DNA of 64,000 nucleotides from Nitrososphaerota archaeon (GTDB taxonomy: Archaea; Thermoproteota; EX4484-205; JAAOZP01), in NCBI GenBank assembly GCA_011605725.1, contig JAAOZP010000004.1, positions 1-64,000 on the forward strand. Direction: 5' to 3'. The notes beneath the pieces are model-generated. The model had not been told where the DNA came from. It saw only the letters and a list, made by a program, of their open reading frames with translations, and ran no database searches. Positions 27,515-63,553 of this stretch are shown here, one piece after another. The position numbers were made by a program, and so were the translations under genes. The first letter of the stretch is position 1, and every line of letters starts with the position of its first letter.

Positions 27515-27526
27515 TAGTGCGCGTTA
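27515..27526. repeat. GC-linker palindrome, decayed (TAGTGCGCGTTA); first copy in the window
   Basis: Two C>T changes from TAGCGCGCGCTA. Confidence 0.6.
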
Positions 27527-27593
27527 TGTTTCAGCTATTCGCCATAGTCAATCATGCAACTCATTCAAAAGATCAATCTTTACCCTACTGGAT

Positions 27594-27605
27594 TAGCGCG
27601 CGCTG
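27594..27605. repeat. GC-linker palindrome (TAGCGCGCGCTG)
   Basis: Intact AGCGCGCGCT core, intergenic. Confidence 0.85.
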
Positions 27606-27681
27606 GCCTCATTCTCAACTACCTCGATACTTAACCATTCATACTTATATACCTTTTAAACCAGTATCGAAGTTAACGTGT

Positions 27682-28932
27682 TCAAACATATTTCTCAGCA
27701 GCAGAGGAAGCTATTCTCGCCCACTCCCATAGTCGTTGAGGCTGGTACCTAACGGTGCTAATGTCCTTCATATGGATCTCCATCACACAGTTAAACCTCC
27801 TCGCCTTCCTAAGCTTCTCCTCAATGTCTCTACGCACTGCCTCCGGGTTCCAACTCGACTCGGCCAGCACAGCGGGATTAGGCTTCCAAGCGAATATGAA
27901 CTCGTCACCCACGTTTTCAACAGCCTTGTCGAAATCTATGAAGGGGCTCATAGAGATTCTGCGCAGCCTAGGAATATTCCTCCTCAAAACCTCAACCTTA
28001 TGGTGGAGCGGCTCGCAGCACCCATAGTAGTTGAAACCCCATCTTTCATACCAACGTTTCTCATGCTTCAGCGCAAACTCCTCATGCATAGCAGGGGAAA
28101 CTGCTGCGAAAACCTGGGCCGCGCCCACTCCCCAGAGCCTCATCGGAGAGTCGCGCAGCAGTCCCAGCTTCTCATACTTGTCTAGACGTTGAAGCCAAGC
28201 GTCAACCATTTTCTCGACAAGCCTGTGCACGTATCTTGGTCTGCGGTACATGTCTACGAGAACCTCCTTGACCCCGGTTAGCATCACGATCTCGTCCCAG
28301 GGAGCAAACCAGAAGGCGCTTACGCCACGCTTCTCAACAGGCAGAACCCCGTCGAAAATCTCGCAAAGCATTTCAAACTCCCCCTCAGCTTTCTCCTCGT
28401 CGAAGAACACTTCAGGCACCCGGATCTTTTCAATGTCTTCTTCACACTTGATTTGAACATGGTAACGGTGGGAAACCACAGGATTTTTCTCGTCAATCCT
28501 CAAAATATCCTCCTTAATGCTGATGCCGAAGCCAGTGTCAACGATATAGTCGTGAAGCGGCTGCTCAACGACGGGCTCCAGGCTTAGGCTGCTGCTGAAA
28601 CGCGGATCGTCAACAAGCACGCCCAATCCATGCCTCCACTTATAGATCAAGCGTCTCAGCCTCTCCTCGTATCTCCGGCACAACGGGTGCTTCGTCCTCA
28701 ACGTAAGCTCGTCGCCAACATTCATCTCATGCCACGGGATCTCGTAAACATAGACCGGGGGCTTAACCATCTCCAGATTATTCACCCTCTTCTGCAGCTC
28801 AGCATACTCCTCGTTAACAGGGGAGGCTGCAATTTCAACGATCAGCCTTCCAAGCTCCCTCAGAATCTCCTTGTCTTCAGAAGGTATTCTACTGTAAGCC
28901 ATTGTTTCTCCCATGCTCCTTTTCCAAGCCAT
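27682..28932 (-). CDS. Uroporphyrinogen decarboxylase/MtaA-like TIM-barrel protein
   Basis: VSPAMHEEF, YYGCCEPLHHK, RISMSP, KPNPA. Confidence 0.65.
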   Translation of the reverse strand: MAWKRSMGETMAYSRIPSEDKEILRELGRLIVEIAASPVNEEYAELQKRVNNLEMVKPPVYVYEIPWHEMNVGDELTLRTKHPLCRRYEERLRRLIYKWRHGLGVLVDDPRFSSSLSLEPVVEQPLHDYIVDTGFGISIKEDILRIDEKNPVVSHRYHVQIKCEEDIEKIRVPEVFFDEEKAEGEFEMLCEIFDGVLPVEKRGVSAFWFAPWDEIVMLTGVKEVLVDMYRRPRYVHRLVEKMVDAWLQRLDKYEKLGLLRDSPMRLWGVGAAQVFAAVSPAMHEEFALKHEKRWYERWGFNYYGCCEPLHHKVEVLRRNIPRLRRISMSPFIDFDKAVENVGDEFIFAWKPNPAVLAESSWNPEAVRRDIEEKLRKARRFNCVMEIHMKDISTVRYQPQRLWEWARIASSAAEKYV

Positions 28933-28985
28933 TGGGGCCCGGGAGGACTAAAAAACTTATTGACCGCAATCCTCAAGCCCCTGGC

Positions 28986-29028
28986 TAGCGCACGTTGAAA
29001 GGCGTGAAAGGCATACTAGCGCGCGCTT
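28986..29028. repeat. Two GC-linker copies (TAGCGCACGTTG 28986-28997; TAGCGCGCGCTT 29017-29028)
   Basis: One decayed and one intact copy 19 bp apart, intergenic. Confidence 0.8.
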
Positions 29029-29103
29029 ATCAATCAGAACAGATATTGTGGGAAAAATACTGGGTGAAATCAGCACACGCCAATAGCGCTCCGCCATCCC
29101 TCT

Positions 29104-30495
29104 TTATTTTCCCTCAAGAATATCTTTAAGTTCAAAAATGATGAAGCCTTTCTCAGAAAGCTCCTCCTTGCCTTCGACTCTTCTACCGACTAAGCCGAAA
29201 TACTCTCTTCGCCTCTCCTTCCTCCACTTAAAGACTTGAGCCTTCTGCTTCAAGACTTGAATTATTCTTTTAGCCTCAGCCTTCTTCAAATCACTCCACT
29301 TCACTTCAAAAAAGGCTGATAAAGACTGGGCCTCGTCCAAGGCAACGGCATCTATCTCTTGGTCTTTAAACCACCACTTCCCTATGATCTTCGGACGGAA
29401 TGGAGCCCTCTTTAAACCGTAGAGGCTTTCTCTAAAGATCTGTTCGAAAACCGTCCCGAGATAAGCATCGTAGTCTCGCTTAACCTTCTCCAAAACCGCG
29501 CCAACGTTTCCAAGCTCAAGCTCAGACTTATTCGGGAAGACGTAGCGGAACCAGAAAGCCATGTAGGGGTCAGATATACGGTAGAGGGCTTTCCGCGGCT
29601 TAATTCTCTCCCCAACAGGGTAGAGACGCTCAATCCAGCCTAATTCCTCCAGCACGTCGAGATACTTTGAAAGAAGGGTTTTCTCGAGTCCGGTGAAGCC
29701 GGCTATCTCGCCGAAGGAAGAAGCTCCGAACGCCACAGCCTTAAGTATTACCGAGTAAAGCCTTGGCTCGCGGAGCTCATCCCTCAGCAGGAATTCAGCC
29801 TCGCCATAAAGGAACTCGCCTTTCCTGAATATTCGAGTAGCCACGTTATCCCAGAACGGGACATCTGGGTCAAACTTAAGAAGATAGGCCGGAACTCCGC
29901 CGAGACACCCGTAAACCCTAACGAGATCCTCCTCAGGATATTCTTTGAAGAATCCCCGGAGATGATGAAAACGTAGGGGCTGAAGCTTCCATTGCCCGGT
30001 TCTCCTACCGTAAAGCGGGCTCCTGTAGCTTAAAACCTCGGTCTCCATCATACTGATGGAGGAGCCGAGGAGGATTAGCATGACCTGACTGTTCTCAAGC
30101 TCCAGGTCCCAGATTTTCTGGAAAACAGAAGGTATCGCCTTATCATCCTCTATCAGCATCGGAAACTCGTCTATCACGATAATAACCCTCCCCCCTTTCC
30201 ACCATTTCAGGAACTCTTTGAAGAGCTCCAGCCAGCCGCTAATTTCAAGCTTAGAGAAGGACTCGTCACCGAGAACCTGCGACATCTTCCCCTTAAACTC
30301 CTCAAGCAGATCTCTCTCCGGCCTCCTGTCCGCCAAGAAGTATACAGCGGGCTTCCCCCTGACGAACCTTGCGATAAGCTCGGTCTTACCGATCCTCCTA
30401 CGCCCATAAATAACTATTAGCTCAGGATCCTTGCTTCTGAACTTCTCCTCCAAGTATTGAAGCTCCTCCTCCCTGTCGACAAATAGTTGAATCAC
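29104..30495 (-). CDS. Archaeal ATPase (ATPase_2) with wHTH and DUF234 PD-(D/E)xK-like domain
   Basis: FVDREEEL, YGRRRIGKT, IDEFP, SPLYGRRT, EIDAVA..FEVKW. Confidence 0.9.
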   Translation of the reverse strand: MIQLFVDREEELQYLEEKFRSKDPELIVIYGRRRIGKTELIARFVRGKPAVYFLADRRPERDLLEEFKGKMSQVLGDESFSKLEISGWLELFKEFLKWWKGGRVIIVIDEFPMLIEDDKAIPSVFQKIWDLELENSQVMLILLGSSISMMETEVLSYRSPLYGRRTGQWKLQPLRFHHLRGFFKEYPEEDLVRVYGCLGGVPAYLLKFDPDVPFWDNVATRIFRKGEFLYGEAEFLLRDELREPRLYSVILKAVAFGASSFGEIAGFTGLEKTLLSKYLDVLEELGWIERLYPVGERIKPRKALYRISDPYMAFWFRYVFPNKSELELGNVGAVLEKVKRDYDAYLGTVFEQIFRESLYGLKRAPFRPKIIGKWWFKDQEIDAVALDEAQSLSAFFEVKWSDLKKAEAKRIIQVLKQKAQVFKWRKERRREYFGLVGRRVEGKEELSEKGFIIFELKDILEGK

Positions 30496-30715
30496 GAATA
30501 TAATACTTATGATTCAACTATTTAAATCTTAGCTCTCGGAACAGCGTCACATCCAGCGCCATTAAAAAAGTGCTTCCAAGACTTGAACACACCAGCCTGC
30601 ACAGGACAATTACCGCATAGCCAGACGGCCCGAAATATTCTGGAAGCCTTCGACCAGTCTGCATCAACGCATCCCGCCTACATGCGCATTCAAGCGGAAA
30701 ACCAGCAGTCCCTCC

Positions 30716-31270: not shown

Positions 31271-31411
31271 GATATTTCTAAATTTAAAGATTGCTTAAAA
31301 AGCTTTTCCTCAAAGACAGCTAAGGATCATCGATCTATCTACACGTCACTCAGATTTAATGCCTAGGATACCGATCATGCGTGCGAAACCTCTTCAGTCG
31401 ACATCCCCATT

Positions 31412-31423
31412 AAGCACGCGCTA
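31412..31423. repeat. GC-linker palindrome, decayed (AAGCACGCGCTA)
   Basis: One G>A change from consensus. Confidence 0.7.
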
Positions 31424-31723: not shown

Positions 31724-31747
31724 TCGGCGCTTCGCCTTCTATGTGAA

Positions 31748-33250: not shown

Positions 33251-33259
33251 AGCGCGCTA

Positions 33260-33383: not shown

Positions 33384-33738
33384 TAGCACGCGCTTCTTTT
33401 TCTGAGGTTCCTTATCCATAAGCCACGCTTGCTGTATAGAAGCTTTTCCTCGGGACCGTTTTCTAATAGGCTCTCTTCTCATCTTTCGGTCTGAACATAA
33501 TCTCAGACATTATCCTCGCCCCGGAGTCATTTCTCATTACGAGTATCACGGAACATAGAAGTCTGCTTCCGACTCCGTGAATTCTCCATCTTTGATTCTT
33601 CTCACAAACGTTGAAATGCAGTATCTGTTCTCATCCGCATCATTCTAGTAATTCCCTCCCAAGCTTCTTTATGGATGTTTTTTAAAATTCTGGAATAACA
33701 TTTATATTTTGATGGAAAAATGGTAAATATGGTGAAAA

Positions 33739-33984
33739 ATGGAAAGTAAGGTAGAAGTTAAGAAGGTGGATCCGCAGGGCCGCGTTATTCTGCCCGCTGA
33801 CTGGCGCCAATCCGAAATGAAAGAAAGTAGAGAAATATACATAATCCGAGAGAAAGGGTATTTGAAGATAATCCCGAAGCGTAAAGTTGATTTAACCGAA
33901 TACTTTGATAAAGTTGATTTAAACGTCGAAGCCATTGAGAATTGGAAGAAGTTTGAGAAAAGGCTCTACGGGAGGCGCTCATGA
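33739..33984 (+). CDS. AbrB/MazE-type antitoxin (VapB)
   Basis: KKVDPQGRVILPADWR; ATGA overlap with the PIN gene. Confidence 0.85.
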   Translation: MESKVEVKKVDPQGRVILPADWRQSEMKESREIYIIREKGYLKIIPKRKVDLTEYFDKVDLNVEAIENWKKFEKRLYGRRS

Positions 33985-35786
33985 GGTTCTTAGACGCAAA
34001 CATTTTCATCTACGCCTATTACAAACCGAAGAGGCAGCTCTCCCAAAAAGAGAAGCATATGAAGGAGTATGCCAAGAAGATAATTAGCAATGTATCTCAA
34101 GGAAAAGAGAAGGTGGCAACCACGGTTGTGCATCTTTCGGAGATTGTGAACATCCTCAAGCACGGCATGACCGTGGATGAATTAGCTAAACTCATCACCG
34201 GCTTATTTATGCTGGACAATGTTGAAATATATGGAGTGTCTAAGGAAGACTATTTTGCCGCGGTTGAGTTGAGTAAGGACTTAAAGATTGAGCGCGCGCG
34301 CGCTATCGTGTCCGTTCTCAGCGGGAACAACTCCATTTCTTGGGCAACCCTGAGTAAGTGGAACAGCACGAGCAAATCTTGGGATTACAACATTAAGGAC
34401 TTGAAGTCGAACATGAAGTCAGCACCCGGGTTAAGCTACATGGAGATCTGGGTGGACAAGCAGGACATAGGGTACACCCCTAATGGAATAAACTTCTTCA
34501 TAGAATCGTATGCTGAGGTTGGGGCTATGCTGGAGACGGAGCTGACTTACGTCATAGGTTCCTCGAAGAAGGGAATTACTTTGGACGGGGAACCGGATGA
34601 CTGGGGCACCATAGCCCCGTTGAAGACATTTCCATCAAAGAGGATAAACCCTCCTGAGCTGGAGGCTTCAAGCGTTTACATTGCAAACGATGATAAGAAT
34701 CTCTACTTCAGGTTTGACACGAGGGGAAAGCCCACCACAACAGTCAACGAAGGAGAATTGTACAGAATTACAGAAAGTTACCTTGACACCGATAACAATG
34801 ATAACACTGGATACATAGGGCGTGGTGGAGCAGAATTCAGAGTCTACGCATCCTTCTTTGTTAACGTGTCGAAATACACTCGCGTGCGCTACGAGAAGTA
34901 CACCGGGACGGGGCGTGATTATAGTTGGCAGGAGATTTCTGAATCATGGAACGCTGGGGACTTCAACAGCATCTTCGAATTCAAAATACCTCTCAGCATG
35001 ATTGGAGTAGAGACCGGTAGAACAATCGGCCTCTACATAGATGCGTTCTTGTGCATTTTTTATCGTAATATTCCCCAGCCCGGTCATTTGACGTATCCTC
35101 CGGATACTACTCCACCAGTCACAGCAATAGCTCTGAGCAAACCTAAGCATCAGGTTGGTTCAACAACCTATGTCTCCGGCTCAACGCTTTTCGAGCTCTC
35201 GGCAAGCGATGCTAGTGGAGTTAAGGAGATAAAGTATAGGGTTGACAATGGTCCATGGAATGCCTACACGGCAGGCTTCACGCTGTCAGGGTTCTCTGAC
35301 GGTTCTCACACGATAAGCTATTATAGTGTCGACAATGCTGGAAACACTGAGACCGAGAAAACCCTTACAATAATGCTGGATAAGACTCCTCCAACGATAG
35401 GCGAAGCATCGCCAACCGGAACCATTGGCTCAACATCAGTAACTTTCACGGTTAAGGTCGAGGACTCCGGCTCAGGAGTTAAGGAGGTTAAGCTAATCGT
35501 CGACGGTGCTTCCCAAGGCTTGATGAGCCAAAGCGGAAACACCTACACTAAAACGCTAAGTCTGTCAGAAGGCTCTCACACCTGGAGCATCGAAGCGGTT
35601 GACAACGTGGGAAACACCGCAACCCGAAACTACTCTCTCACATTCTCCACATGGATGAGCCTACTACCCTACCTTATAGCTGCTACCATAGTAATCGTAA
35701 TCATCATAGCCACCGCAGCAATCATGCTTAGGAGGAGACGCGCACCACTACCACCGCCCCCGCCTCCACCACCTCCTCCACCATAA
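33981..35786 (+). CDS. Chimeric ORF: truncated VapC PIN domain (33981-34290) fused in frame via a GC-linker to the C-terminal part of a surface protein (Ig-like domains, TM, poly-Pro)
   Basis: MRFLDANIFIYA..HLSEIVNIL, then ERARAIV encoded by GAGCGCGCGCGCGCTA, then LDGEPDDW, DTTPP..DGSHTISYYSVDNAGN, TM-RRRR-PLPPPP. Confidence 0.8.
   Translation: MRFLDANIFIYAYYKPKRQLSQKEKHMKEYAKKIISNVSQGKEKVATTVVHLSEIVNILKHGMTVDELAKLITGLFMLDNVEIYGVSKEDYFAAVELSKDLKIERARAIVSVLSGNNSISWATLSKWNSTSKSWDYNIKDLKSNMKSAPGLSYMEIWVDKQDIGYTPNGINFFIESYAEVGAMLETELTYVIGSSKKGITLDGEPDDWGTIAPLKTFPSKRINPPELEASSVYIANDDKNLYFRFDTRGKPTTTVNEGELYRITESYLDTDNNDNTGYIGRGGAEFRVYASFFVNVSKYTRVRYEKYTGTGRDYSWQEISESWNAGDFNSIFEFKIPLSMIGVETGRTIGLYIDAFLCIFYRNIPQPGHLTYPPDTTPPVTAIALSKPKHQVGSTTYVSGSTLFELSASDASGVKEIKYRVDNGPWNAYTAGFTLSGFSDGSHTISYYSVDNAGNTETEKTLTIMLDKTPPTIGEASPTGTIGSTSVTFTVKVEDSGSGVKEVKLIVDGASQGLMSQSGNTYTKTLSLSEGSHTWSIEAVDNVGNTATRNYSLTFSTWMSLLPYLIAATIVIVIIIATAAIMLRRRRAPLPPPPPPPPPPP
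34290..34305. repeat. GC-linker palindrome, expanded (GC)6, at the gene-fusion junction
   Basis: GAGCGCGCGCGCGCTA. Confidence 0.85.
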
Positions 35787-36020: not shown

Positions 36021-38429
36021 ATGACCCAAGGAGAAAAATCCAAGAAATACGTACTCTGGTTCAACGAAATAGGCATAGAAGACGTACCCCTAGTAGGAGG
36101 AAAATCAGCAAGCCTAGGAGAAATGCTCAGGAAAACAGGCGTACCCGTGCCAAACGGCTTCGCAACCACCGCTGAAGCATACCGCTACTTCATAAAATAC
36201 AACAACCTCGAGAAGAAGATAGCCGACATACTAAGCGAGCTGAAAGACCCCAACGACACCAAAACACTGCAAAACGTAGGAGCAAGAATCAGGAAAACAA
36301 TCATGGAGGCAAAAATGCCCCCGGAAATAGAGGAGGAAATCAAAAAATACTACGCGCAGCTGGAGAAAGAAGTCAACCAGAAAAACCCGTTCGTAGCAGT
36401 AAGATCATCAGCAACAGCCGAAGACCTCCCAGACGCAAGCTTCGCAGGACAACAAGAAACATACCTAAACGTGTCAACACCCGAACAAGTCGTAGACAAG
36501 GTTAAAGAATGCTACTCAAGCCTCTTCACAGACAGAGCAATATTCTACAGAGTCCAAAAAGGATTCGACCACATGAAAGTCGCACTATCCGCAGCAGTCC
36601 AGCTAATGGTCTACTCAAAAGCCTCAGGAGTAATGTTCACCCTCGACGTAAGCAACGGAGACAGAAGCGTAGTAATGATAGAAGCAGGATACGGCCTCGG
36701 CGAATACGTCGTCCAAGGAAAAATCACGCCAGACGACTACTACGTTAGAAAAACCGACCTGCAAATCGTAAAGAAAGTCGTATCAACCAAAAAAGTAATG
36801 CTCGTCAGAAAACCAGGAGGAGGAACAGAAGAAAAAGAAGTCCCGCCAGAACTGCAAGACAAGCAAATACTCACCGACCAACAGATAAAAGAACTAGCAG
36901 CATACGCAATAGAAATCGAAAACCACTATGGTAAACCAATGGACATCGAATGGGCACTAGACGAAAGAGACAACAGACTCTACATACTCCAAGCAAGACC
37001 AGAAACAGTATGGGCACTCAAAAAACCCCAGGAGGAAAAAACAGAAACAGTAGCAGTAACCAAAGAGAAAGAAGTAATATGCCAAGGACTACCAGCATCA
37101 CCAGGACTAGCCGTTGGAAAGGCACATATAATTCTAAGCGTCGATAAATTAGACACATTCAAGCCAGGAGAAATACTAGTAACAATAATGACGGCGCCCG
37201 AGTGGGTTCCGGCCATGCGTAAGGCGGCTGCAATAGTTTGCGATTCAGGCGGCATGACTGCACACGCGGCCATAGTCTCACGAGAACTCGGAATCCCATG
37301 CATCGTCGGAACCGCGTCGAAAGGAAAACCTGCAACCGAAGCAATCAAGGATGGAGAAATCATAACGGTTGACGCGAAGCTGGGAGTCGTATACAGGGGA
37401 GCTTTAGCAGAAGTCGTAGAGAAAAAGGAGGAGAAGAAGGTTGAAGCCGTCGCAGTTGCAGCAGAATCATACCCGGTGACGGGAACAAAGATTTACGTTA
37501 ATCTAGGTGAACCCGAGTTAGCGGAAAAAGTCGCTTCACTACCTGTTGACGGCGTCGGACTAATGAGGCTCGAGTTCACGTACGCTGCCGAAGTAGGCGA
37601 GCACCCGCTACACTTAATCGAAACCGGTCACCCTGAGAAGGTTGTCGACAAGCTTGCCGAGGGGATGAGAAAAGTCTGCGCAGCGTTCTATCCTCGTCCC
37701 GTCGTGGTTCGTCTCGTCGACTTCAAGAGCAGCGAGTATAGAGACTTGAAAGGCGGGGAAAAATATGAGCCTGAGGAGCCCTCTGCGCTATTAGGCTGGA
37801 GAGGAGCATCGAGATATTACGATCCTAAGTATCTGCCTGCCTTCAGGCTTGAGCTCAGAGCTATAAAGAAGGTTCGCGACGAGTATGGGTTGAAGAACCT
37901 GTGGGTCATGATTCCGTTCTGCAGGACGATAAGCGAGATTGAGAAGGTCGTCGCAATCATGAAAGAGGAGGGACTTGAGCGCGGACCAGACTTCAAACTG
38001 TGGGTCATGGCTGAGATACCTTCAAACGTCTTGATAGCTGACAAGTTCAATAGATATATAGATGGGTATTCGATTGGTTCGAATGATTTAACTATGTTAA
38101 TACTTGGTGCAGACAGGGATAATGAGACTGTGGCGAAAATCTTCGACGAGAGGGACCTTGCTGTTAAAAGAGCAATTAAATATTTAATTAAAATAGCGCA
38201 TCGCGACGGCAAGACTGTTTCAATATGTGGACAGGCTCCATCAGTATATCCTGAGTTCACCGAGTTTCTTGTTAGAGCAGGCATTGACTCCGTGTCTATT
38301 AATCCTGATGCTGCAGTGTTCACTAGGAAGCTTGTTGCATCTATTGAGCAGAGGATAATGCTCGAGAAGGCTCTCGGCAAAGTTAAGGTTGACCCTGACT
38401 GGGACCTGCCTGACCCAGACGAAGAGTAA
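36021..38429 (+). CDS. ppsA: Phosphoenolpyruvate synthase
   Basis: VGGKSASLGE, AVRSSATAED, GGMTAHAAIVSRELG (phospho-His), GVGLMRLE, SIGSNDLT, ICGQ. Confidence 0.96.
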   Translation: MTQGEKSKKYVLWFNEIGIEDVPLVGGKSASLGEMLRKTGVPVPNGFATTAEAYRYFIKYNNLEKKIADILSELKDPNDTKTLQNVGARIRKTIMEAKMPPEIEEEIKKYYAQLEKEVNQKNPFVAVRSSATAEDLPDASFAGQQETYLNVSTPEQVVDKVKECYSSLFTDRAIFYRVQKGFDHMKVALSAAVQLMVYSKASGVMFTLDVSNGDRSVVMIEAGYGLGEYVVQGKITPDDYYVRKTDLQIVKKVVSTKKVMLVRKPGGGTEEKEVPPELQDKQILTDQQIKELAAYAIEIENHYGKPMDIEWALDERDNRLYILQARPETVWALKKPQEEKTETVAVTKEKEVICQGLPASPGLAVGKAHIILSVDKLDTFKPGEILVTIMTAPEWVPAMRKAAAIVCDSGGMTAHAAIVSRELGIPCIVGTASKGKPATEAIKDGEIITVDAKLGVVYRGALAEVVEKKEEKKVEAVAVAAESYPVTGTKIYVNLGEPELAEKVASLPVDGVGLMRLEFTYAAEVGEHPLHLIETGHPEKVVDKLAEGMRKVCAAFYPRPVVVRLVDFKSSEYRDLKGGEKYEPEEPSALLGWRGASRYYDPKYLPAFRLELRAIKKVRDEYGLKNLWVMIPFCRTISEIEKVVAIMKEEGLERGPDFKLWVMAEIPSNVLIADKFNRYIDGYSIGSNDLTMLILGADRDNETVAKIFDERDLAVKRAIKYLIKIAHRDGKTVSICGQAPSVYPEFTEFLVRAGIDSVSINPDAAVFTRKLVASIEQRIMLEKALGKVKVDPDWDLPDPDEE

Positions 38430-38466
38430 GGTTTCTAGTTCCCTTTTCTAACTTTTGTATTTTTCA
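38430..38466 (+). terminator. T-rich tract after ppsA (archaeal-type terminator candidate)
   Basis: gtttctagttcccttttctaacttttgtatttttc directly after the stop. Confidence 0.4.
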
Positions 38467-38490
38467 CTGTCCCCTTATTGTTAAAACTGA

Positions 38491-38504
38491 TTAGCGCGCG
38501 CTAA
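38491..38504. repeat. GC-linker, perfect 14-bp palindrome TTAGCGCGCGCTAA
   Basis: Direct repeats CTGATTAG at 38487-38494 (overlapping the palindrome) and 38506-38513. Confidence 0.88.
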
Positions 38505-49410: not shown

Positions 49411-51165
49411 TTATCCTCTAGCCAACTTAACTGTTCTTTCAACTGCCTCCCATATTTTGGATTTGAATAGTTCTTCTTTCTTATCTTCCTGGAGGTTTTT
49501 TATAAAATCGTATGCTTCATTGGGATGGATTTTTTCTCCTTCCTGCCTTTCCCAGCCCAGCTTCTTGATCTCGTCCTCTAACTCTCTATCAAGTTTGATG
49601 CATACATTTTGATCAATAAGATCGCCGAGCTCAACATCATGATCCGCTAAGATTATGAACGGTATCTCATATTTCCTTAATAACTTAATCCACTTTTTAA
49701 AGTTCTCTTTACCGCCTACATCCACGACGGTCACATCGTTTTGATCAAGTATATTCTCTTTCAATTCTGAGATCGCTATAACTGTAGCGTGATCCGCCGG
49801 GCCCTCTACCAGGAGAACGCTGTTAGAAAAGAATACTTCTGGTCGGAATTCATGCCGTTGAATTGCAAAACCGTTCGTCGGCGCTATGACCGTGCTTTCG
49901 TTATCATCCTTTCTCACATAAATCAGCCTCCTATCTTGTGTGCCTTGCAGTAGACTAAGGTCAACAAAGTATGGCGAATGCGTTACTATTATTGTCTGCA
50001 CGTCTTTCTTATCCATCAATATTTTACTTAGCAAGGTTATTTTCGTTTGGTGGAGGTGGAGAGCTGGTTCATCGAGTATAAGAATAGGATGTTCCGGAGC
50101 CGATATTAATGAAAGCATATAGAGAGCTTCAAAATAACCTGACGCACTCTCATGTAATCTAACACGCTTAGAACCCTCCTTTATGACTACGTATCTTTTC
50201 TTTCCAGTTAGAGCAGAGGTTTCTTCTTCATAAACGTCAAACTCTATGGACTGAAATATTTTTTGGAAATCCTGCTTTAATTTATCGTAGTTCTCAGCTA
50301 AAGGCTCTTTATTCTTTAGATCGAAAAGATTATTCGCTAGCTCTTCCAAAGAGGGCCTATGCTCAGATATGAAACATAGCCTATTCTCTAGCATTACCGC
50401 AAGCAACGTCCAAAAGGATGAGTGTCCTGTAAAACTGTATCTGGAGAGTTCTTTTATTGCATTCATAACATATTGTTTATCACGGTTTGTAAGGTATATA
50501 GTATCATCTATGTGAAATCTTGAACAATGAGATTGCTCAAAAAGGGTTTTTATATAAGTAGTGTCAAAATTGAGGGTCAGAGAAGGCATGTTTTTCTGCA
50601 TCTCCGGGAATTCCCTGCGAGAAGATTCATTTAATAGCTCTAATGCTTTTCCGGGATCTTCTCTAGAAATCGTTTGGGGCAACATTCCCCGATAGGCAAC
50701 ATATGATTCTCCTTCTCTACAGGAAGAATATAATATGATTCCATTATCAAACTATAGCGCCACGAAATCTGGTCGCACCTCTGCCGTGTCGGCAGTCGGC
50801 TTCCAGTATACGATCAGGGTTGAAATCTCATAGTCCTTATAGTAGGATTCGAGTTCTTCTGGAGGAGTATCCTTTCTGCTAACAGAATCAAGCAGTAAAT
50901 TTACTTCGCTTTCAGAAAATTCTACTCTCATATTTATTGAGCATTCAGAATTTTTATTAAACCTTAACTCATTTGAGATACCAGTGAGTGAAAGGCTTGG
51001 AGGACCAGAAGAGGGTGCACTAGGTTTAGTCAGGAGTTTCAATATTCTGATGAGGTTTGTCTTTCCACTCGCGTTTCTGCCTACTATAACATTATAGTTT
51101 CCAAAGCTGAAGCTAGCATCCTTATAGCTGTACAAATTCTTTATTTGTATGCTTTTAATCTTCAT
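49411..51165 (-). pseudogene. OLD-family ATP-dependent nuclease (ABC ATPase plus TOPRIM), interrupted by an in-frame TAG at 50752-50754
   Basis: IKNLYSY, GRNASGKTN, SASG, ILDEPALHLH, VTHSP, LLVEGPAD, ILADHD; the frame continues past the TAG (FDNGIILY..). Confidence 0.82.
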
Positions 51166-51323: not shown

Positions 51324-51538
51324 TGGCGTGCACTAGTTTTCTAATCTAATGACTATTCCAAAAATTCTATTAACATAGAATATACAAACACGAATACCGT
51401 GCCTTCCCTCCGGACATTTCTACGTTCTGCTTCGCCAGAAAATTGGGCATTAACCCCTTTACTGCGTACCCTCTTTCAGCATACTCGACACGATCATACA
51501 TCTCTGTGTCTTTTAGAAACATCCCGGGTAGCGCGCTA
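51324..51538. repeat. Two GC-linker copies (TGGCGTGCACTA 51324-51335; TAGCGCGCTA 51529-51538) bracketing an unidentified fragment of about 190 bp
   Basis: Decayed and short variants. Confidence 0.6.
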
Positions 51539-54056: not shown

Positions 54057-54085
54057 TAGCGGGCGCTAGCGTGCGTCGCGCGCTA
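54057..54085. repeat. Concatenated GC-linkers TAGCGGGCGCTAGCGTGCGTCGCGCGCTA
   Basis: Two to three fused or decayed units sharing TA. Confidence 0.75.
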
Positions 54086-54225: not shown

Positions 54226-54311
54226 TAGCGCGCGCTTTTAGCTTCAAAACTATGGGAACGATAATACAGATTGCTATTGCCCCAGTGACAAAATAGAGCC
54301 AGTGTGCGCTT
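54226..54311. repeat. GC-linkers TAGCGCGCGCTT (54226-54237) and CAGTGTGCGCTT (54300-54311)
   Basis: One intact and one decayed copy. Confidence 0.75.
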
Positions 54312-57553: not shown

Positions 57554-57565
57554 AAGCGCGCGCTA
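57554..57565. repeat. GC-linker AAGCGCGCGCTA
   Basis: The NERD reading frame is open from this point. Confidence 0.85.
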
Positions 57566-58369: not shown

Positions 58370-58456
58370 TAGCTCGCGCTACGTAAAACCCCTGAAGAGT
58401 TAAGTTTGCATGTTCCTTCTTCATGTAAGCTTATATAAGATTAAGAGCGCGCGCGG
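58370..58456. repeat. GC-linkers TAGCTCGCGCTA (58370-58381) and GAGCGCGCGCGG (58445-58456)
   Basis: Two variant copies 63 bp apart. Confidence 0.75.
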
Positions 58457-59652: not shown

Positions 59653-59680
59653 CATAAAATATCACTAATCCGGGTTTGTG

Positions 59681-59818
59681 AGAGCAGGCATTAAGCGGCG
59701 CTGCAGTCTTCACTCGTAAGCTTGTTGCAAGCGTCGAACAGAGGATTATGCTTGAGAAAGCCCTTGGCCAGGTTAAAACCGATCCCGACTGGGACCTGCC
59801 TACCCTGACGAAGAGTAG
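59681..59818 (+). pseudogene. Diverged remnant of the ppsA 3' end
   Basis: Encodes RAGI..AAVFTRKLVASVEQRIMLEKALGQVKTDPDWDLP-PDEE*, matching ppsA about 38274-38429 with mostly synonymous changes. Confidence 0.88.
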
Positions 59819-59939
59819 GGTTTTTAAAATATTAGATTTGCCAGCTTCCTCTAGCTTTTTTAACTCTTCCTTTTTCCCTTTGATTAAATAGTCTAAAGGC
59901 TTAATAATATCTTCAACCCCTTTCTAGGGTTGGAATACA

Positions 59940-60182
59940 ATGAATCTTAAGAAGACTCATCACCTCGACAGGATTACTATTGACCCGGATGTTATGGGTG
60001 GCCAGCCATGTATTAGAGGCCTGAGGATTCCAGTATCCCTCATAATCAAGCTGATAGCTTCAGGCAAGAGCGTTAAAGAAATACTGGATGACTACCCTGA
60101 GCTTGAGGAGGAGGATGTTAGACAGGCTTTAGAGTACGCTGCCTGGGCGACCACGGAAGCATCCATACCGATAATCCCATGA
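59940..60182 (+). CDS. DUF433 family antitoxin
   Basis: RITIDPDVMGGQPCIRGLRIPV..EILDDYPELEEEDV. Confidence 0.92.
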   Translation: MNLKKTHHLDRITIDPDVMGGQPCIRGLRIPVSLIIKLIASGKSVKEILDDYPELEEEDVRQALEYAAWATTEASIPIIP

Positions 60183-60443
60183 GATTCCTAGCCAACATGT
60201 GCATATCGCCAAAGACGGTTGAGTTTCTGAGAAGCTTAGGATATGAAGTAGATAGGGCTAGTGTGCTTGGGCTCTCAAGGTCAAAGGATCGGGAAATAAT
60301 CGACTACGCGGCTGTGAACTCAATGGTTTTAATAACCATGGATCTGGATGTCGGTCGGATAATTGCCCTTCTTGGGAGAAGAAAACCGTCAGTAATATTG
60401 CTGCGCCTTAGGAAGCCGACTGTCGAGAACATAGCGCACACTA
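60179..60443 (+). pseudogene. DUF5615 PIN-like toxin, truncated at GC-linker TAGCGCACACTA (60432-60443)
   Basis: MRFLANMCISP..DREII..LITMDLD..PSVILLRL; homology ends at the linker while the ORF runs on into the next gene. Confidence 0.7.
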
Positions 60444-60535
60444 TAGAGTTCCACATACTCTATGCTTTTAAGCACCCATGCCGGCAATCTAAAATCTTAT
60501 ATAACAGGTTAGGTAAACATACTCGAGTAGCAAGC

Positions 60536-61093
60536 ATGATGAATAAGGCTCAGCCTAGGGATAGTGGACTGTTGTACGAGTTCACGGCTAACCTTGTTAA
60601 TATCTTTAAGATCCGAGGAACCATTTTAGGAAAATTGGATCTGCAGAAAACCGTGTATTTTATGAAGAGGCTAGGGGTAAAAATTCCTTTCGAGTTCAGA
60701 TGGAATCTTCTAGGCCCATATAGTTACGAGCTTGCGCATTATTGCACCCTCCTAGAGATCAAGGGCTTGCTGTCTTACTCAGGAACCTTCAGGCTGAATG
60801 AGGAGAAGGCTGAGGAATACAGGCTGGACTTACCGAAGGATGTTGCTGAGAAGATTAAACGCTTTTTTGAAGATATGGATGGATTATGTGAAGAAAAGGG
60901 TTATGACAGAGTTGTTTTCATTGAGTGTGCTGCCTCCCTAGACTTCATTAATCAAAACATTACTGCAGAGGGGTCTAGGAAAGATGCTGTTTTCTCCCTT
61001 CTTGAGAAACTGAAGCCTGAAAAGGCAGAGAAGTTCAGGGAAATGAGGGAGGATGCTTGGATGCTCCTCATACGCGAGAAACTGGTTGACTAG
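60536..61093 (+). CDS. YwgA/SocA-like winged-helix protein
   Basis: LQKTVYFM, FEFRW..GPYSYEL; own ATG at 60536. Confidence 0.6.
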   Translation: MMNKAQPRDSGLLYEFTANLVNIFKIRGTILGKLDLQKTVYFMKRLGVKIPFEFRWNLLGPYSYELAHYCTLLEIKGLLSYSGTFRLNEEKAEEYRLDLPKDVAEKIKRFFEDMDGLCEEKGYDRVVFIECAASLDFINQNITAEGSRKDAVFSLLEKLKPEKAEKFREMREDAWMLLIREKLVD

Positions 61094-61118
61094 TAGCCTA
61101 TGATCCTGAGCCTTCATC

Positions 61119-61407
61119 ATGAGTAGAAGGACGTACAAGTATTTTCGCGACCCTATACATGGGTTCATAGAGGTTGATGAGCGTTTTCTAAAAATCATTG
61201 ATTCACCGTTTTTTCAACGTCTACGGAGAATAAAGCAGACCTGGTTTTCCATGGTGCTGAGCATTCTAGGTTCAGCCATTCCCTGGGTACATATCACTTG
61301 GCCGGCATCATAACTGAAAAAATTGATCCAGAAGGGTCAAGAAAAGGGTTGTATTATGAGTTTTATCTTGCGGCGCTGCTTCACGACATTAGCCATAGCG
61401 CATGTTA
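61119..61407 (+). pseudogene. HD-domain dNTP triphosphohydrolase (YwfO/SAMHD1-like), frameshifted and truncated at GC-linker TAGCGCATGTTA (61396-61407)
   Basis: RDPIHG..FQRLRRIKQ / LVFHGAEHSRFSHSLG..AALLHDISH then linker. Confidence 0.82.
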
Positions 61408-61507
61408 ACATTTTCATGGGCCCTAACGTGCTTAAACCTCCCATTTCAATCGAACTATTCTCGGTAATGCTTATATTCACCTTACTGTGTAATTATCGAC
61501 GGAGAGA

Positions 61508-61707
61508 ATGTCCAACAGCACTTTGGAGGAGGTCTTAAAGAGGTTAGGCTTATTCGCAGCAAGGTTGAGAGGCTGGAGGACCTTGTGGAGGAGAGGCTGA
61601 TCGGTTCCGATGAGCCGCTAGAGGACGAGGCTGAGGCGATGAGAGAATACTTGGAGGCGAAGGAGAAGGGAGACGTAGAATACATACCTCTGGAGAAGAT
61701 CGAGTAG
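61508..61707 (+). pseudogene. RelB-like archaeal antitoxin, frameshifted near 61533
   Basis: MSNSTLEEV / LKEVRLIRSKVERLEDL..EYIPLEKIE; upstream of relE-like gene. Confidence 0.55.
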
Positions 61708-61721
61708 GAGAGATAAGCTTA

Positions 61722-61984
61722 TTGCAACGATACCGCGTTTTTCTTGAAAGAAGAGCCCTTAAAGAGCTTGAAAAGATTAAGGGAGAAATGCACGGCAGAA
61801 TTGTCGAAGCCCTGCATATTCTTCAAGACGAAGGATTTTCAAAAGACTCGACATTATAAAACTGCGAGGAAGCAAAAACCATTACCGGATAAGAGTAGGC
61901 AAGTACAGAATACTGTTTGAACTAGCTTCCAATAAAACGATAACCATATATGCTATACTGCCACGTGAAGCAGCATACCAATAA
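61722..61984 (+). pseudogene. RelE/StbE toxin, frameshifted at A4 61841-61844
   Basis: YRVFLERRALKELEKI / LDIIKLRG..YRIRVGKYRILF..PREAAY. Confidence 0.8.
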
Positions 61985-62035
61985 ATCAAAAGAACAAGTA
62001 AATTGGATAGAAAACAGAAAGAGATGGTAATAAAA

Positions 62036-62051
62036 AATACGCGCGCGTATT
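62036..62051. repeat. GC-linker variant, perfect 16-bp palindrome AATACGCGCGCGTATT
   Basis: Terminates a coiled-coil gene fragment. Confidence 0.75.
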
Positions 62052-62334
62052 CGTCCGTTCTTGCATTTGCCTCCTCTTCCTCAAGTCTGTCGATTTGTTC
62101 CTCTAATCTAGAAATATATTCTTCAGCTTTTTCTATGTTATTTTCCCATCGCTCAATATTACTTTCCATCCGTTCTCGCCATTCTTCATATTTTCTCTTT
62201 CTTTCTTCTTGTCGTTGTAACCACTCCTCACGTTTTCTTCTTTTCTCTTCTTTGATCTCTACAATTCTTGATGTCGCTCGATTCCACGCATCACTTAACG
62301 TATCATATATCTCATGCCGTTGGTCTCTGCTCAT
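62052..62334 (-). pseudogene. Internal fragment of a coiled-coil protein gene
   Basis: MSRDQRHEIY..EEKRRKREEW..NARTDEY; the composition changes abruptly at the linker. Confidence 0.5.
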
Positions 62335-62396
62335 ATATACGCCCCGCAACGAGCAGAAGATCATCGAACATGTAAGGAAGCTTTCGCCTTGAGTCC

Positions 62397-62486
62397 TAGC
62401 GCGCGCTTCAATAACGGCTAACGTTTATAGCTGGTTAGCTCTGTCCCCCAAAGAACATTATGAGTGGAACCCCAGCGCGCGCGCTA
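62397..62486. repeat. GC-linkers TAGCGCGCGCTT (62397-62408) and CAGCGCGCGCGCTA (62473-62486)
   Basis: Two intact copies 64 bp apart. Confidence 0.85.
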
Positions 62487-62566
62487 AGATTTTAAACATT
62501 TTTTCAAGCATCGCGCACGAAACGGAAAAGTATGCGTGGAAATACTGGCTTCCTAAAAAATAATTC

Positions 62567-62980
62567 CTATTCTTCAGCATTTGGAGTAACCCAGATTCTT
62601 TTAATCCCCTTAACCCTGTCGAACTCCCTGTCTTCAGAAACTATATTGCTTATTCCGGCTTTCTCCATCGTTGCCAAGTGTATAGCGTCAGAGGGTTTCA
62701 AACCGTACTTTAACAAGTATTTTTCAACGGGCTTTAAATCCTCCTCTTCAACGGGCAAGACTTCAGCGTAGGGCAGCACCGTGTTTTTCAAGAAGTCTAA
62801 AGTTGTTTCATAAGACACTCCATACTTTCTCGATATGTAAAGCACCTCATCTACCACAAGCATGTTCGTAAACAGCTGTTCCTCAAGAAGTCTTCTGAAA
62901 AGCTCTTCTATCAGCCTTCTTTCATCATCCACCATAGCGTTCAAGTATATGAGGAAGCAGGAATCTAGAAAGGCTTTCAA
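62567..62980 (-). CDS. vapC: VapC PIN-domain toxin
   Basis: FLDSCFLIY, VVDEV, LKPSDAIHLA, SEDREFD. Confidence 0.9.
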   Translation of the reverse strand: MKAFLDSCFLIYLNAMVDDERRLIEELFRRLLEEQLFTNMLVVDEVLYISRKYGVSYETTLDFLKNTVLPYAEVLPVEEEDLKPVEKYLLKYGLKPSDAIHLATMEKAGISNIVSEDREFDRVKGIKRIWVTPNAEE

Positions 62981-63249
62981 CCAGTGTTCTCCTCGAACTC
63001 CATTTCTAAATAGGCCTTACTCAGGTCTCCTAGCTTCGGGCTGGAAACCCTCATCCTTCTAATCTTTTCAACATGCTCCTTAAGCCTTTTCATTATTTCC
63101 TCTGGAGAGGGTTTTCCCCTTATCAAGATGCCTTCTGAAGTGGGTTCGATCGAAACTTTCTCTCCCTCCACTATTCCATACCTGTCTCTAAACACTTTGG
63201 GGATAAGTATCTGCCCCTTTTCTCCAACTTTTACCTTGAGTTCAACCAT
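62977..63249 (-). CDS. AbrB/MazE-type antitoxin (VapB)
   Basis: KVGEKGQILIPKVFRDRYGIVEG; overlaps the vapC start. Confidence 0.9.
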   Translation of the reverse strand: MVELKVKVGEKGQILIPKVFRDRYGIVEGEKVSIEPTSEGILIRGKPSPEEIMKRLKEHVEKIRRMRVSSPKLGDLSKAYLEMEFEENTG

Positions 63250-63314
63250 GGTTTCTGAAAGTTATACCTTAGTTGGAATACTTAAACCTTTCCAACTTAA
63301 GATACAGCCAATGG

Positions 63315-63553
63315 GGCGCGCTCTTCCTTTTCCGGAAAGAGGCGAAACCCCTTGCTTCATCTAATAGCTTTCTCCTCAAGCGCGCGCTAACATTACTTTT
63401 TCGTATAGTTTCTCCTCCATTTAACATTGGAAATCAGTAATTACTGCTAATGTTTTCCAGTGCTTTTTCTATAAAAACATACTACGTTTAACAAGTATGG
63501 TGTATAAAAAGGAGTTTGAAGATGTTGTGTTTAGATATCAGTAGCGCGTGCTA
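63315..63553. repeat. Three GC-linkers: GGCGCGCTC (63315-63323), AAGCGCGCGCTA (63378-63389), TAGCGCGTGCTA (63542-63553)
   Basis: One intact copy and two variants. Confidence 0.78.

What the first reader, a model, noticed from the sequence alone, without database searches (positions are those of the whole stretch)
27515..63553. Island stitched together by a 12-bp GC palindrome, (T/A)A-GCGCGCGC-T(A/T): candidate undescribed DNA capture/joining system
Seen: A(GC)4-6T cores start at 27595, 29018, 34291, 38493, 48691, 49393, 54227, 57555, 62398, 62474 and 63379. About 17 shortened or decayed copies also occur, e.g. 27515, 28986, 31412, 33250, 33384, 51324, 51529, 54057, 54300, 58370, 58445, 60432, 61396, 62036 and 63542. 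I saw no GCGCGC in the first 27 kb of core genes. The copies delimit one- to few-gene modules (UROD-like; ATPase plus DUF996; Schlafen; R-M/pAgo; HEPN-like; OLD; NERD; vapBC) in mixed orientation, and also 20-200-bp scraps. Decay is mostly C>T or G>A, implying copies of different ages formed in vivo. Knowledge: the motif is not an integron attC, a dif/pdif site or a CRISPR repeat, as it is too short and lacks their arms and spacing. Inference: it is the product or site of a recurrent joining reaction. Options are (a) a recombinase acting at a GC core with a relaxed partner site, (b) end-joining that adds a (GC)n linker, or (c) the footprint of a TA-targeting IS630-like element or a 4-bp GCGC duplication. 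The enzyme is not in this window.
Basis: partly seen in the sequence, partly recalled or inferred. Interest (0 to 1): 0.93.

Follow-up and report, generated by a model that had tools for sequence, protein, structure and literature searches.

The report
GC-palindrome scars at DNA joins
A short palindrome, TA-GCGCGCGC-TA, is not a gene signal in this hot-spring archaeon but a filler left wherever broken DNA was rejoined, which points to an undescribed way of joining any two DNA ends through a self-pairing GC tail.

Summary
The window has 15 GCGCGCGC hits against 0.3 expected, and none lies before 27.6 kb. All 11 listed cores and the main decayed copies are real.

The motif [T]A(GC)nT[A] peaks at n=4. 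It is genome-wide, about 60-70% lies in the 12% of the genome outside long ORFs, and it clusters in variable regions.

New sequence comparisons show what it is:
- Homology to paralogues, sister species and metagenome strains stops within 0-2 nt of the GC run, while the other copy runs on without any motif.
- Deletions of 0.46, 0.9 and 1.4 kb carry only the filler at the junction.
- Three copies of one vapBC cassette have nested, different ends, each capped by (GC)3-5.

So the motif is made de novo at DNA joins.

The most likely mechanism is end joining of the terminal-transfer, anneal, extend kind published for Saccharolobus primase. The enzyme is not identified. One lead is an accessory RadA-paralogue plus compact PriS-like primase pair that tracks the motif within the genus. 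However, motif-rich genomes of two other families lack it.

This scan had already found the motif on other pieces of this genome. No paper describing it was found.

The parts
27595..27604 (.). A(GC)4T filler at the junction of a ~1.4-kb gene deletion that is private to this genome
   Evidence: The gene is present in G002, G016, G008, G007, G010, G006, L055 and L058. The left flank is native up to ...GGATT and the right flank is native from TGGCC....
27515..27526 (.). Old decayed copy, TAGTGCGCGTTA
   Evidence: It is orthologous to TAGCGCGTGCTA in G002/L058. The two copies decayed differently.
28986..28997 (.). Old decayed copy, TAGCGCACGTTG
   Evidence: It is orthologous to a perfect TAGCGCGCGCTA in G002 and L058. 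Homology to L059, L060 and L086 ends here.
29018..29027 (.). A(GC)4T junction
   Evidence: Homology to L055-L058 and G002 stops at ...GGCATACT, and the relatives run on with unrelated sequence.
31412..31423 (.). Decayed copy, AAGCACGCGCTA
   Evidence: Homology to G002/L058 ends at 31413.
33251..33258 (.). A(GC)3T junction
   Evidence: A paralogous match to window 36162-36253 ends exactly here.
33384..33395 (.). Decayed copy, TAGCACGCGCTT
34291..34304 (.). A(GC)6T junction that truncates a PIN gene and fuses it in frame to an Ig-domain protein gene
   Evidence: L055 and L060 continue the PIN gene after ...GATTGA. Relative to L058 about 0.5 kb is missing. ORF 33981-35786 is therefore a chimera.
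38492..38503 (.). Perfect TAGCGCGCGCTA, 63 bp after the PEP synthase stop codon
   Evidence: G002 and G016 carry their own GC run at different distances after the same stop codon. G003, G007 and G008 carry none.
48690..48701 (.). Perfect TAGCGCGCGCTA between hsdR and a 177-aa ORF
49393..49402 (.). A(GC)4T between the 177-aa ORF and the OLD nuclease gene
51530..51537 (.). A(GC)3T
54057..54068 (.). Decayed copy, TAGCGGGCGCTA, with a further GCGCGC at 54078
54227..54236 (.). A(GC)4T
57555..57564 (.). A(GC)4T on the left of the NERD gene module
58370..58381 (.). Decayed copy, TAGCTCGCGCTA, on the right of the NERD module
   Evidence: Homology to a G007 locus ends at window 58309, 5 bp from a GC run in that locus.
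58446..58455 (.). A(GC)4G
60432..60443 (.). Decayed copy, TAGCGCACACTA
   Evidence: Homology to L020 ends at 60433.
61396..61407 (.). Decayed copy, TAGCGCATGTTA
62398..62407 (.). A(GC)4T, left edge of a 66-bp scrap
62474..62485 (.). A(GC)5T, right edge of the scrap and left cap of the vapBC cassette
62541..63378 (-). vapBC cassette (PIN 62567-62980, MazE-like 62977-63249). It is present in three copies with nested, different end points.
   Evidence: It is 89% identical to G000:C7:380996-381837 and 93% identical to G002:C43. Each copy ends at a different base and is then capped by (GC)3-5.
63379..63388 (.). A(GC)4T, right cap of the vapBC cassette
   Evidence: The C7 and G002 copies run on for about 80-100 bp before their own caps.
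63542..63553 (.). Decayed copy, TAGCGCGTGCTA
27682..28932 (-). UROD-like gene, a conserved backbone gene of the genus
   Evidence: It is present in all genus genomes compared and lies next to PEP synthase in motif-free G003.
36021..38429 (+). PEP synthase, a core gene lying inside the 'island' range
   Evidence: It is 82-90% identical across the genus.

Best explanation
The palindrome [T]A(GC)nT[A], with n mostly 4 and a range of 3-6, is a junction filler. It is a scar written into the DNA each time two DNA ends are joined without homology. This happens after deletions, when stray fragments are captured, and when gene cassettes are moved.

Shown: the motif is absent from the parental sequences and appears exactly at the break. 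It is 4-9 nt of net added sequence. The flanking A or T is sometimes native and sometimes added, and 1-2 nt of G or C may be shared with the end. Old copies decay by CpG transitions while new ones arise nearby.

Inferred mechanism: each resected 3' end receives a short tail that starts with A, or TA, and continues with alternating G and C. Because (GC)n pairs with itself, any two tailed ends can anneal in either orientation, even at high temperature. Gap filling and ligation then give the symmetric A(GC)nT.

This is the 'terminal transfer, anneal, extend' end joining demonstrated for the Saccharolobus primase PriSL, but here it leaves a stereotyped product.

The enzyme is not identified. It could be the replicative primase. 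A second candidate is an accessory pair at G000:C7:378062-379796 made of a RadA paralogue and an overlapping compact PriS-like primase. I put that specific candidate at about 0.15-0.2.
For: 1. De novo origin at breaks
- Window 27595 is a 1.4-kb deletion whose gene is present in eight relatives. Both flanks are native and only A(GC)4 lies between them.
- C10 against C11 shows a 0.9-kb deletion with (GC)4 at the junction.
- G008 and L064 carry a 464-bp intragenic deletion with (GC)3 where six other genomes are intact.
- Window 34291, (GC)6, truncates a PIN gene that continues in L055 and L060.
- The reverse cases also occur: L057, L059 and L086 carry the motif where the window runs on.

2. Intragenomic junctions
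- About 60 junctions show paralogous homology stopping 0-2 nt from the run while the source continues.
- Scraps of 47-180 bp are bounded by the motif on both sides.

3. Nested ends
- Three copies of one vapBC cassette have nested, different ends, each capped by the motif.

4. Breakpoint statistics
- 9 of 40 unique homology breakpoints lie within 6 bp of a run, against 1.7% expected (P about 2e-8). Three more lie at decayed copies.

5. Motif properties
- The size distribution peaks at n=4, and n=2 is not enriched.
- The phase is specific: 119 (GC)4 against 12 (CG)4.
- There is no position preference relative to gene starts or ends.

6. Independent assemblies
- Orthologous copies occur in independent assemblies and have decayed differently, so the motif is not an artefact.

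7. Published precedent
- PriSL adds nucleotides to 3' ends, prefers G, adds A to base-paired ends, and anneals strands through 2-4 GC pairs. It mediates microhomology end joining in vivo (PMC3333859, PMC12019639).
- No Ku was found in the genus.

8. Candidate pair
- The AEP keeps the DxD and SGxxGFH motifs and has a PriS-like fold.
- It was found in the six genus genomes with 6-118 copies of the ten-mer, plus a fragment in G008. It was not found in seven genomes with none.
- Six contigs from other organisms encode homologues. Together they hold 13 (GC)>=4 runs in 100 kb, against 0 in 81 kb of control contigs of similar G+C.
Against: No enzyme activity was tested, so the tailing step is inference. 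Why the tail should alternate G and C, and why n peaks at 4, is not explained by any known polymerase property.

One clean case (G000:C7:191785) is a pure insertion of (GC)3 plus an 8-bp duplication with no loss of DNA. This also fits a small mobile insertion.

Against the accessory primase as the agent:
- The same motif is strongly enriched in other Thermoproteota families that lack it. Ten-mer counts against control are G105 22 vs 0 (a complete genome), G389 35 vs 1, G395 14 vs 1 and G142 30 vs 0 (only a pseudogene remnant there).
- G009 has 16 copies and no gene was found.
- G023 has a distant homologue and no enrichment.
- Within the genus, the gene pattern largely follows one clade.
Confidence: 0.68

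Rival explanations
1. Two-step model. The 8-12-bp palindrome is itself a tiny mobile insertion, made by an unknown nuclease or insertase. Later recombination or microhomology deletion between two copies removes the DNA between them and leaves one copy at the junction.
For: There are pure insertions with a short duplication: G000:C7:191785 has (GC)3 plus an 8-bp repeat and is absent in G002, and C10:30933 has a 6-bp repeat. Copies cluster and lie 30-200 bp apart. Being palindromic, any two copies act as direct repeats.
Against: Junction-type events far outnumber pure insertions. At least 10 junction events were seen in window comparisons, against 1-2 insertions in about 290 kb of G002 alignment. 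For the 1.4-kb, 0.9-kb and 0.46-kb deletions, no relative shows a motif at either end point. Nested cassette ends each carry a cap. There is no general target duplication.
Confidence: 0.12
2. The motif is a site for a site-specific recombinase, like an integron, dif or att site, that shuffles gene cassettes between copies.
For: Modules of one to a few genes are bounded by copies. Strain differences end at copies.
Against: Copies arise where neither partner had one. Both sides of captured scraps carry full-length copies rather than half-sites. The same cassette has three different end points. There are no conserved arms beyond 12 bp. No integrase was found among the window ORFs by Pfam.
Confidence: 0.04
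3. The motif is the excision footprint of a TA-targeting cut-and-paste transposon whose inverted-repeat tips are GCGC.
For: The TA...TA frame and the palindromic shape resemble Tc1/mariner footprints. A variable n could come from different annealing registers.
Against: No DDE_3 (IS630) transposase was found in five genomes. There is no high-copy IS family. TnpB does not correlate with the motif. The filler sits at kilobase deletions where tips would have been resected. The flanking A/T is often native to non-TA sequence.
Confidence: 0.04
4. The motif is a selected functional element, either a protein-binding or Z-DNA-forming site, or an iterated palindrome spread by mutation and repair bias as proposed for cyanobacterial HIP1. 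Its presence at breakpoints would reflect fragility.
For: It is strongly over-represented and phase-specific. (GC)n can form Z-DNA and promote breaks (my own knowledge). AGCGCT is under-represented: 50 against 108 expected in intergenic DNA.
Against: It appears as added bases, not by substitution. It has no positional preference relative to genes. Orthologous copies decay freely. Positions after the same gene differ between species. No C5 methyltransferase was found in the motif-rich genomes.
Confidence: 0.06

Closest known systems
Primase (PriSL)-mediated microhomology end joining / polymerisation across discontinuous templates in Saccharolobus (PMC3333859, PMC12019639)
   Same: Both occur in a Ku-less archaeal thermophile. 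In both, 3' ends are tailed, with G preferred and A added to paired ends. Annealing goes through 2-4 GC pairs, followed by extension. The repair produces indels enriched in G and C.
   Different: The published products are mostly 1-2-bp indels. No stereotyped 8-12-bp alternating GC palindrome and no genome-wide scar class has been reported. Involvement of any primase here is inferred, not shown.
N-nucleotide or filler DNA at NHEJ and V(D)J junctions (TdT, Pol mu), and bacterial Ku-LigD end joining
   Same: Untemplated bases are added at joins between non-homologous ends. A primase-family polymerase domain does the end processing in LigD.
   Different: The filler here has one fixed sequence and symmetry. 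No Ku was found in the genus. The two ATP-dependent ligases are present in motif-free genomes as well.
GC clusters of yeast mitochondrial DNA and GC-rich palindromes of fungal mitochondria (e.g. PMC4478555)
   Same: These are short GC-rich palindromes scattered in AT-richer non-coding DNA. They are polymorphic between strains and associated with deletion end points.
   Different: They are 30-50 bp long and structured, fall into sequence families, and are thought to transpose. Here the element is 8-12 bp, has no family structure beyond TA(GC)nTA, and is found at de novo junctions.
REP/REPIN elements with RAYT transposases, and Neisseria dRS3/NIME mosaics
   Same: Both are intergenic palindromic repeats. 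NIMEs are 50-150-bp scraps bracketed by a short repeat, as the scraps are here.
   Different: REP elements are 20-40-bp hairpins moved by a Y1 transposase, and dRS3 is a 20-bp integration target. Here there are no arms beyond 12 bp, and copies arise where none existed before.
HIP1 (GCGATCGC) of cyanobacteria
   Same: It is a lineage-specific, hugely over-represented short palindrome that is sometimes found at deletion borders.
   Different: HIP1 is common inside genes and spreads by substitution. This motif is mostly non-coding and arrives as inserted bases.

Membership tests
End-joining junction filler (MMEJ/NHEJ-type scar) | Lies exactly at the join between sequences that are not contiguous in the ancestral arrangement | tested here: met
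   Deletions of 1.4, 0.9, 0.46 and about 0.5 kb, and about 60 paralogue junctions. 9 of 40 breakpoints lie within 6 bp of a run, against 1.7% expected.
End-joining junction filler (MMEJ/NHEJ-type scar) | The filler bases are absent from both parental flanks | tested here: met
   At window 27595, C10:141 and the G008 junction, relatives show no GC run at either end point.
End-joining junction filler (MMEJ/NHEJ-type scar) | End points are not sequence-specific (variable resection) | tested here: met
   Three vapBC copies have nested ends. GC runs sit at different distances after the ppsA stop codon in three species.
End-joining junction filler (MMEJ/NHEJ-type scar) | An end-joining enzyme adds the filler | not testable with these tools
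   Only candidates are available: the replicative PriSL, or the accessory AEP at G000:C7.
Site-specific recombination site (integron attC, dif, att) | The site pre-exists in the partners, products share identical end points, and a recombinase is associated | tested here: not met
   The motif originates de novo and cassette ends are nested. No integrase domain was found in the window ORFs.
Tc1/mariner-IS630 excision footprint | A TA target duplication and a resident DDE transposase with matching ends | tested here: not met
   PF13358 was absent in five genomes. There is no repeat family with such ends. Flanking duplications show no excess.
REP/REPIN | An imperfect hairpin of 20 bp or more | tested here: not met
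   Palindromic arms do not extend beyond TA, and the extension counts fall off as expected by chance.
REP/REPIN | A RAYT (Y1 transposase) gene in the genome | not tested
   PF01797 was not searched.
HIP1-like iterated palindrome | Abundant inside coding sequence and spread by point substitution | tested here: not met
   78 of 111 A(GC)>=4T copies lie in the 12% of the genome outside long ORFs. Copies appear as insertions.
CRISPR array | Regularly spaced repeats of 24-40 bp with unique spacers of constant size | tested here: not met
   The repeat is 8-12 bp. Spacing ranges irregularly from 30 bp to several kb.
Archaeo-eukaryotic primase superfamily (the candidate protein only, at G000:C7:378918-379796) | DxD and SGxRGxH catalytic motifs and the AEP fold | tested here: met
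   PF01896 hit. D112, D114, S162, G166, F167 and H168 are invariant in 33 homologues. The AF2 model has pLDDT 81.5, and its best PDB matches are PriS at TM 0.55-0.60.

The most novel reading that the evidence does not exclude
Some hyperthermophilic archaea have a dedicated 'linker-tailing' end-joining pathway. An enzyme, possibly a primase-family polymerase, writes a self-complementary TA(GC)n tail on any free 3' end. Any two ends, whether host or foreign, can then be joined in either orientation at high temperature. This pathway would build and erode defence islands, fuse genes, and leave a datable scar at every event. The pathway is present in at least three families of Thermoproteota.
Probability: 0.4. 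Interest if true: 0.9.

Novelty: new variant of a known kind. Interest (0 to 1): 0.82.

Why it matters
How archaea without Ku repair double-strand breaks is an open question. The only experimental lead so far is primase-mediated microhomology joining in Saccharolobus.

A fixed, recognisable filler would give a natural, genome-wide record of such events in uncultured thermophiles. It would show where breaks are repaired, how much DNA is lost or captured, how defence islands and chimeric genes are assembled, and roughly when each event happened, from the CpG decay of the scar.

It also makes the question testable. One motif-rich relative in the survey, G105, is a complete single-contig genome. 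Induced breaks in such an organism should yield (GC)n junctions.

An enzyme that tails DNA ends with a self-annealing GC tract at high temperature would also be of practical interest.

Tried and rejected
- **Complex prediction.** Complex prediction for the RadA paralogue with the compact primase gave no verdict, score 0.00. This is not evidence either way.
- **Families not found or not correlated with the motif.** Ku and reverse transcriptase were not found in the genus. C5 DNA methyltransferase occurred only in a motif-free genome. Both ATP-dependent ligases are present everywhere. There are two copies of family-B polymerase in four of the five genomes, including motif-free G003, and one in G004. 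IS630 DDE_3 was not found in the five genomes searched. TnpB does not correlate.
- **Flanking target duplications.** There is no excess over shuffled or random controls.
- **Longer palindromic arms, or hairpin-end replication.** Rejected.
- **High-copy IS or MITE with GCGC ends.** None was found in the self-comparison of the genome.
- **Promoter or terminator role.** The motif shows no preference for 5' or 3' gene ends or for intergenic type.
- **Fragment copies of the primase gene in several genomes.** Their edges mostly do not coincide with motifs.
- **RadA paralogue in motif-rich genomes of other families.** None was found.
- **Literature.** Full-text searches for the motif strings and for related terms found nothing relevant.

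Full report
**1. Observation**

The window is G000:C4:1-64000 of a 2.23-Mb assembly in 20 contigs.
- GCGCGCGC occurs 15 times (overlapping matches, 12 separate runs), all between 27596 and 63387. The expectation from dinucleotide shuffles is 0.31.
- No (GC)>=3 run lies before 27596.
Most listed 'decayed' copies are one- or two-mismatch versions of TAGCGCGCGCTA that keep the TA...TA frame while the inner CpGs have changed, mostly by transitions.

**2. The motif genome-wide**

- There are 471 (GC)>=3 runs in the genome.
- The phase is specific: 119 (GC)4 against 12 (CG)4.
- Only positions -2/-1 (T, A) and +1/+2 (T, A) are conserved outside the run. The palindrome does not extend further.
- The length is peaked. 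Intergenic A(GC)nT counts are 50 for n=2 (below the expected 108), 33 for n=3, 63 for n=4, 11 for n=5 and 1 for n=6.
- Long ORFs cover 88% of the genome, yet 269 of 471 runs, and 78 of 111 A(GC)>=4T copies, lie outside them.
- Copies cluster in a few regions and show no preference for promoter or terminator sides.

**3. What the copies are**

*Within the genome.* I blasted the flanks of every run against the genome. Of 254 paralogous matches, 48 end at the run. A one-sided analysis gave about 60 junctions where homology stops 0-2 nt from the run and the source copy continues with unrelated sequence. Several scraps of 47-180 bp are bounded by the motif on both sides, while their 85-99% identical sources have no motif at either end.

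*Window against relatives.* I compared the window with seven species of the genus and with metagenome contigs fetched through the UROD-like protein.
- 27595 is the junction of a 1.4-kb gene deletion private to this genome. Both flanks are native, with A(GC)4 between them.
- 29018 is a junction 22 bp beyond an older copy (28986). That older copy is still perfect in G002 and L058.
- 34291, (GC)6, cuts a PIN gene that continues in L055 and L060 and fuses it to an Ig-domain gene.
- The reverse also occurs: L057, L059 and L086 carry the motif where the window is continuous.
- G008 and L064 have a 464-bp intragenic deletion sealed by (GC)3, where six other genomes are intact.
- After the PEP synthase stop codon, G000, G002 and G016 each have a run at a different distance. 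G003, G007 and G008 have none.
- The vapBC cassette at 62541-63378 exists in three copies whose homology ends at three nested positions on each side. Each end is followed by (GC)3-5.

*Breakpoint statistics.* Overall, 9 of 40 unique homology breakpoints lie within 6 bp of a run in one genome, against 1.7% expected (P about 2e-8). Three more lie at decayed copies.

The motif is therefore created de novo at joins between non-contiguous DNA. The end points are not sequence-specific, and the net addition is 4-9 nt. The flanking A is native in some junctions and added in others, and 1-2 nt of G or C can be shared with the end.

**4. What it is not**

- There is no general target duplication, no longer hairpin and no resident IS family with such ends.
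- No IS630-type transposase was found, and TnpB does not correlate.
- No Ku and no reverse transcriptase were found.
- No C5 methyltransferase was found in motif-rich genomes.
- A site-specific recombination site would need pre-existing partner sites and would give identical end points. A regulatory site would be positionally conserved.
- Orthologous copies in independent assemblies, decayed differently, exclude an assembly or library artefact.

**5. Mechanism**

The data fit break, resection, addition of a short tail, annealing, fill-in and ligation. Because (GC)n is self-complementary, two ends that receive the same 3' tail (A, then alternating G/C) can pair in either orientation. The product is necessarily the symmetric A(GC)nT, and different overlaps give n=3-5.

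Published work on Saccharolobus primase supplies every step except the alternation. The enzyme shows terminal transfer with G preferred, efficient addition of A to base-paired 3' ends, promotion of annealing through 2-4 GC pairs, extension across the discontinuity, and a role in double-strand-break repair in vivo (PMC3333859, PMC12019639).

The tailing step and the enzyme are inferred here. The alternation of G and C and the peak at n=4 remain unexplained.

**6. A candidate enzyme, and its limits**

*The gene pair.* A family search showed a second primase-small-subunit-like gene only in motif-rich genomes. It is a compact protein of about 265-290 aa whose start overlaps the end of a full-length RadA paralogue, downstream of dinB, at G000:C7:376638-379796. 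The paralogue is 50% identical to the canonical RadA, which is itself 91-98% conserved across the genus. The primase-like protein keeps the catalytic motifs. Its model (pLDDT 81.5) matches archaeal PriS best, then LigD polymerase domains.

*Pattern within the genus.* The gene is found in G016, G000, G002, G007, G006 and G012. Their ten-mer AGCGCGCGCT counts are 118, 88, 70, 32, 18 and 6. G008 (33 copies) has only a fragment. The gene was not found in seven genomes with zero copies, nor in G013 and G010 (3 each) or G009 (16). This pattern largely follows one clade. The close pair G006 and G010 differs in both the gene and the n=4 motif, although G010 does show excess n=3 copies, 28 against 4 in the control.

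*Contigs from other organisms.* Contigs encoding homologues at 43-67% identity carry 13 (GC)>=4 runs in 100 kb. Control contigs of similar G+C carry 0 in 81 kb.

*Evidence against necessity.* In a 401-genome sample of the phylum, the family occurs only in these genus genomes, in G023 (no enrichment) and as a fragment in G090. Yet the same motif, with the same flanks and the same modal n, is enriched in genomes of two other families that lack the pair. Ten-mer counts against control are G105 22/0, G142 30/0, G389 35/1, G395 14/1 and G285 90/29.

The pair is therefore not necessary for the motif. It remains a lead, at about 0.15-0.2, and the replicative primase or an unknown factor is at least as likely. 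The paralogue is closer to the RadA of one of those families (57% identity) than to its own genome's RadA, which suggests horizontal acquisition.

**7. Comparison with known systems, and novelty**

The nearest known mechanism is primase-mediated microhomology end joining. The nearest known sequence classes are mitochondrial GC clusters, REP elements, NIME/dRS3 mosaics and HIP1. All of these fail one or more defining features (see the membership table).

Full-text searches for the motif found nothing relevant.

Earlier notes of this scan had already flagged the motif on other pieces of this genome. One follow-up called it a possible repair scar at strain-variable points. Those notes also call the organism a hot-spring Bathyarchaeia. 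I did not verify that label, although the names of homologous proteins are consistent with it.

- junctions with both sides known;
- the nested cassette ends;
- the size distribution of n;
- the spread of the motif to other families;
- the tested, and only partly supported, primase candidate.

**8. Verdict**

The finding is real, statistically strong and not described in the literature I could search. The enzyme is unknown.

Noticed in passing
window 38233-38491 and 59700-59826; also G000:C4:69735-71074 and 195-212 kb: The last ~200 bp of the PEP synthase gene plus 60 bp downstream recur many times in every genome of the genus, including motif-free ones, and often several times per contig. This looks like duplicated attachment sites of elements that integrate at the 3' end of ppsA.
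   Followed up: partly
window 39715-41087 (- strand): A short pAgo of about 460 aa is split into two overlapping ORFs. The N half is 40314-41087 and the C half is 39715-40356, so it is probably frameshifted. The two upstream ORFs (41068-43244) have no family match.
   Followed up: partly
window 49411-51165 (- strand): The OLD-family nuclease is split. An N-terminal ATPase piece (50752-51165) is separate from the ATPase-TOPRIM body (49411-50685).
   Followed up: no
window 33981-35786: This 601-aa ORF is a chimera. A PIN-domain N-terminus is joined through the (GC)6 tract to an Ig-domain protein. It is an example of gene fusion by the joining process.
   Followed up: yes
G000:C7:376638-379796 (L108): This is the cluster dinB, RadA paralogue, compact PriS-like primase. 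The last two genes overlap. The pair is conserved next to each other in G002, G006, G007, G012 and in two further MAG contigs, L139 and L140. G000:C12:18273-18857 holds a scrap of this locus that begins exactly at a motif.
   Followed up: yes
G105, G142, G389, G395, G285 (loci L147-L164): The same TA(GC)4TA motif is enriched in genomes of two other families of the phylum. It is often near contig ends and in clusters. The phenomenon is wider than this genus.
   Followed up: partly
G000:C7:191785 and G000:C10:30933: Two copies are flanked by short direct repeats of 8 bp and 6 bp. The C7 copy is a clean insertion relative to G002. The C10 copy lies next to tRNA-like sequence. These may be repairs of staggered breaks.
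   Followed up: partly
whole genome: The hexamer AGCGCT (n=2) is under-represented. It occurs 50 times against 108 expected in non-coding DNA and 346 against 512 in coding DNA. This could reflect restriction avoidance or conversion to longer forms.
   Followed up: no
G000:C10:1-148 and G000:C11:1-140: Two contigs start with the same 140 bp at 100% identity and diverge exactly at a (GC)4 run. Several contig ends lie within 250 bp of a motif, which suggests that strain variants break the assembly there.
   Followed up: partly
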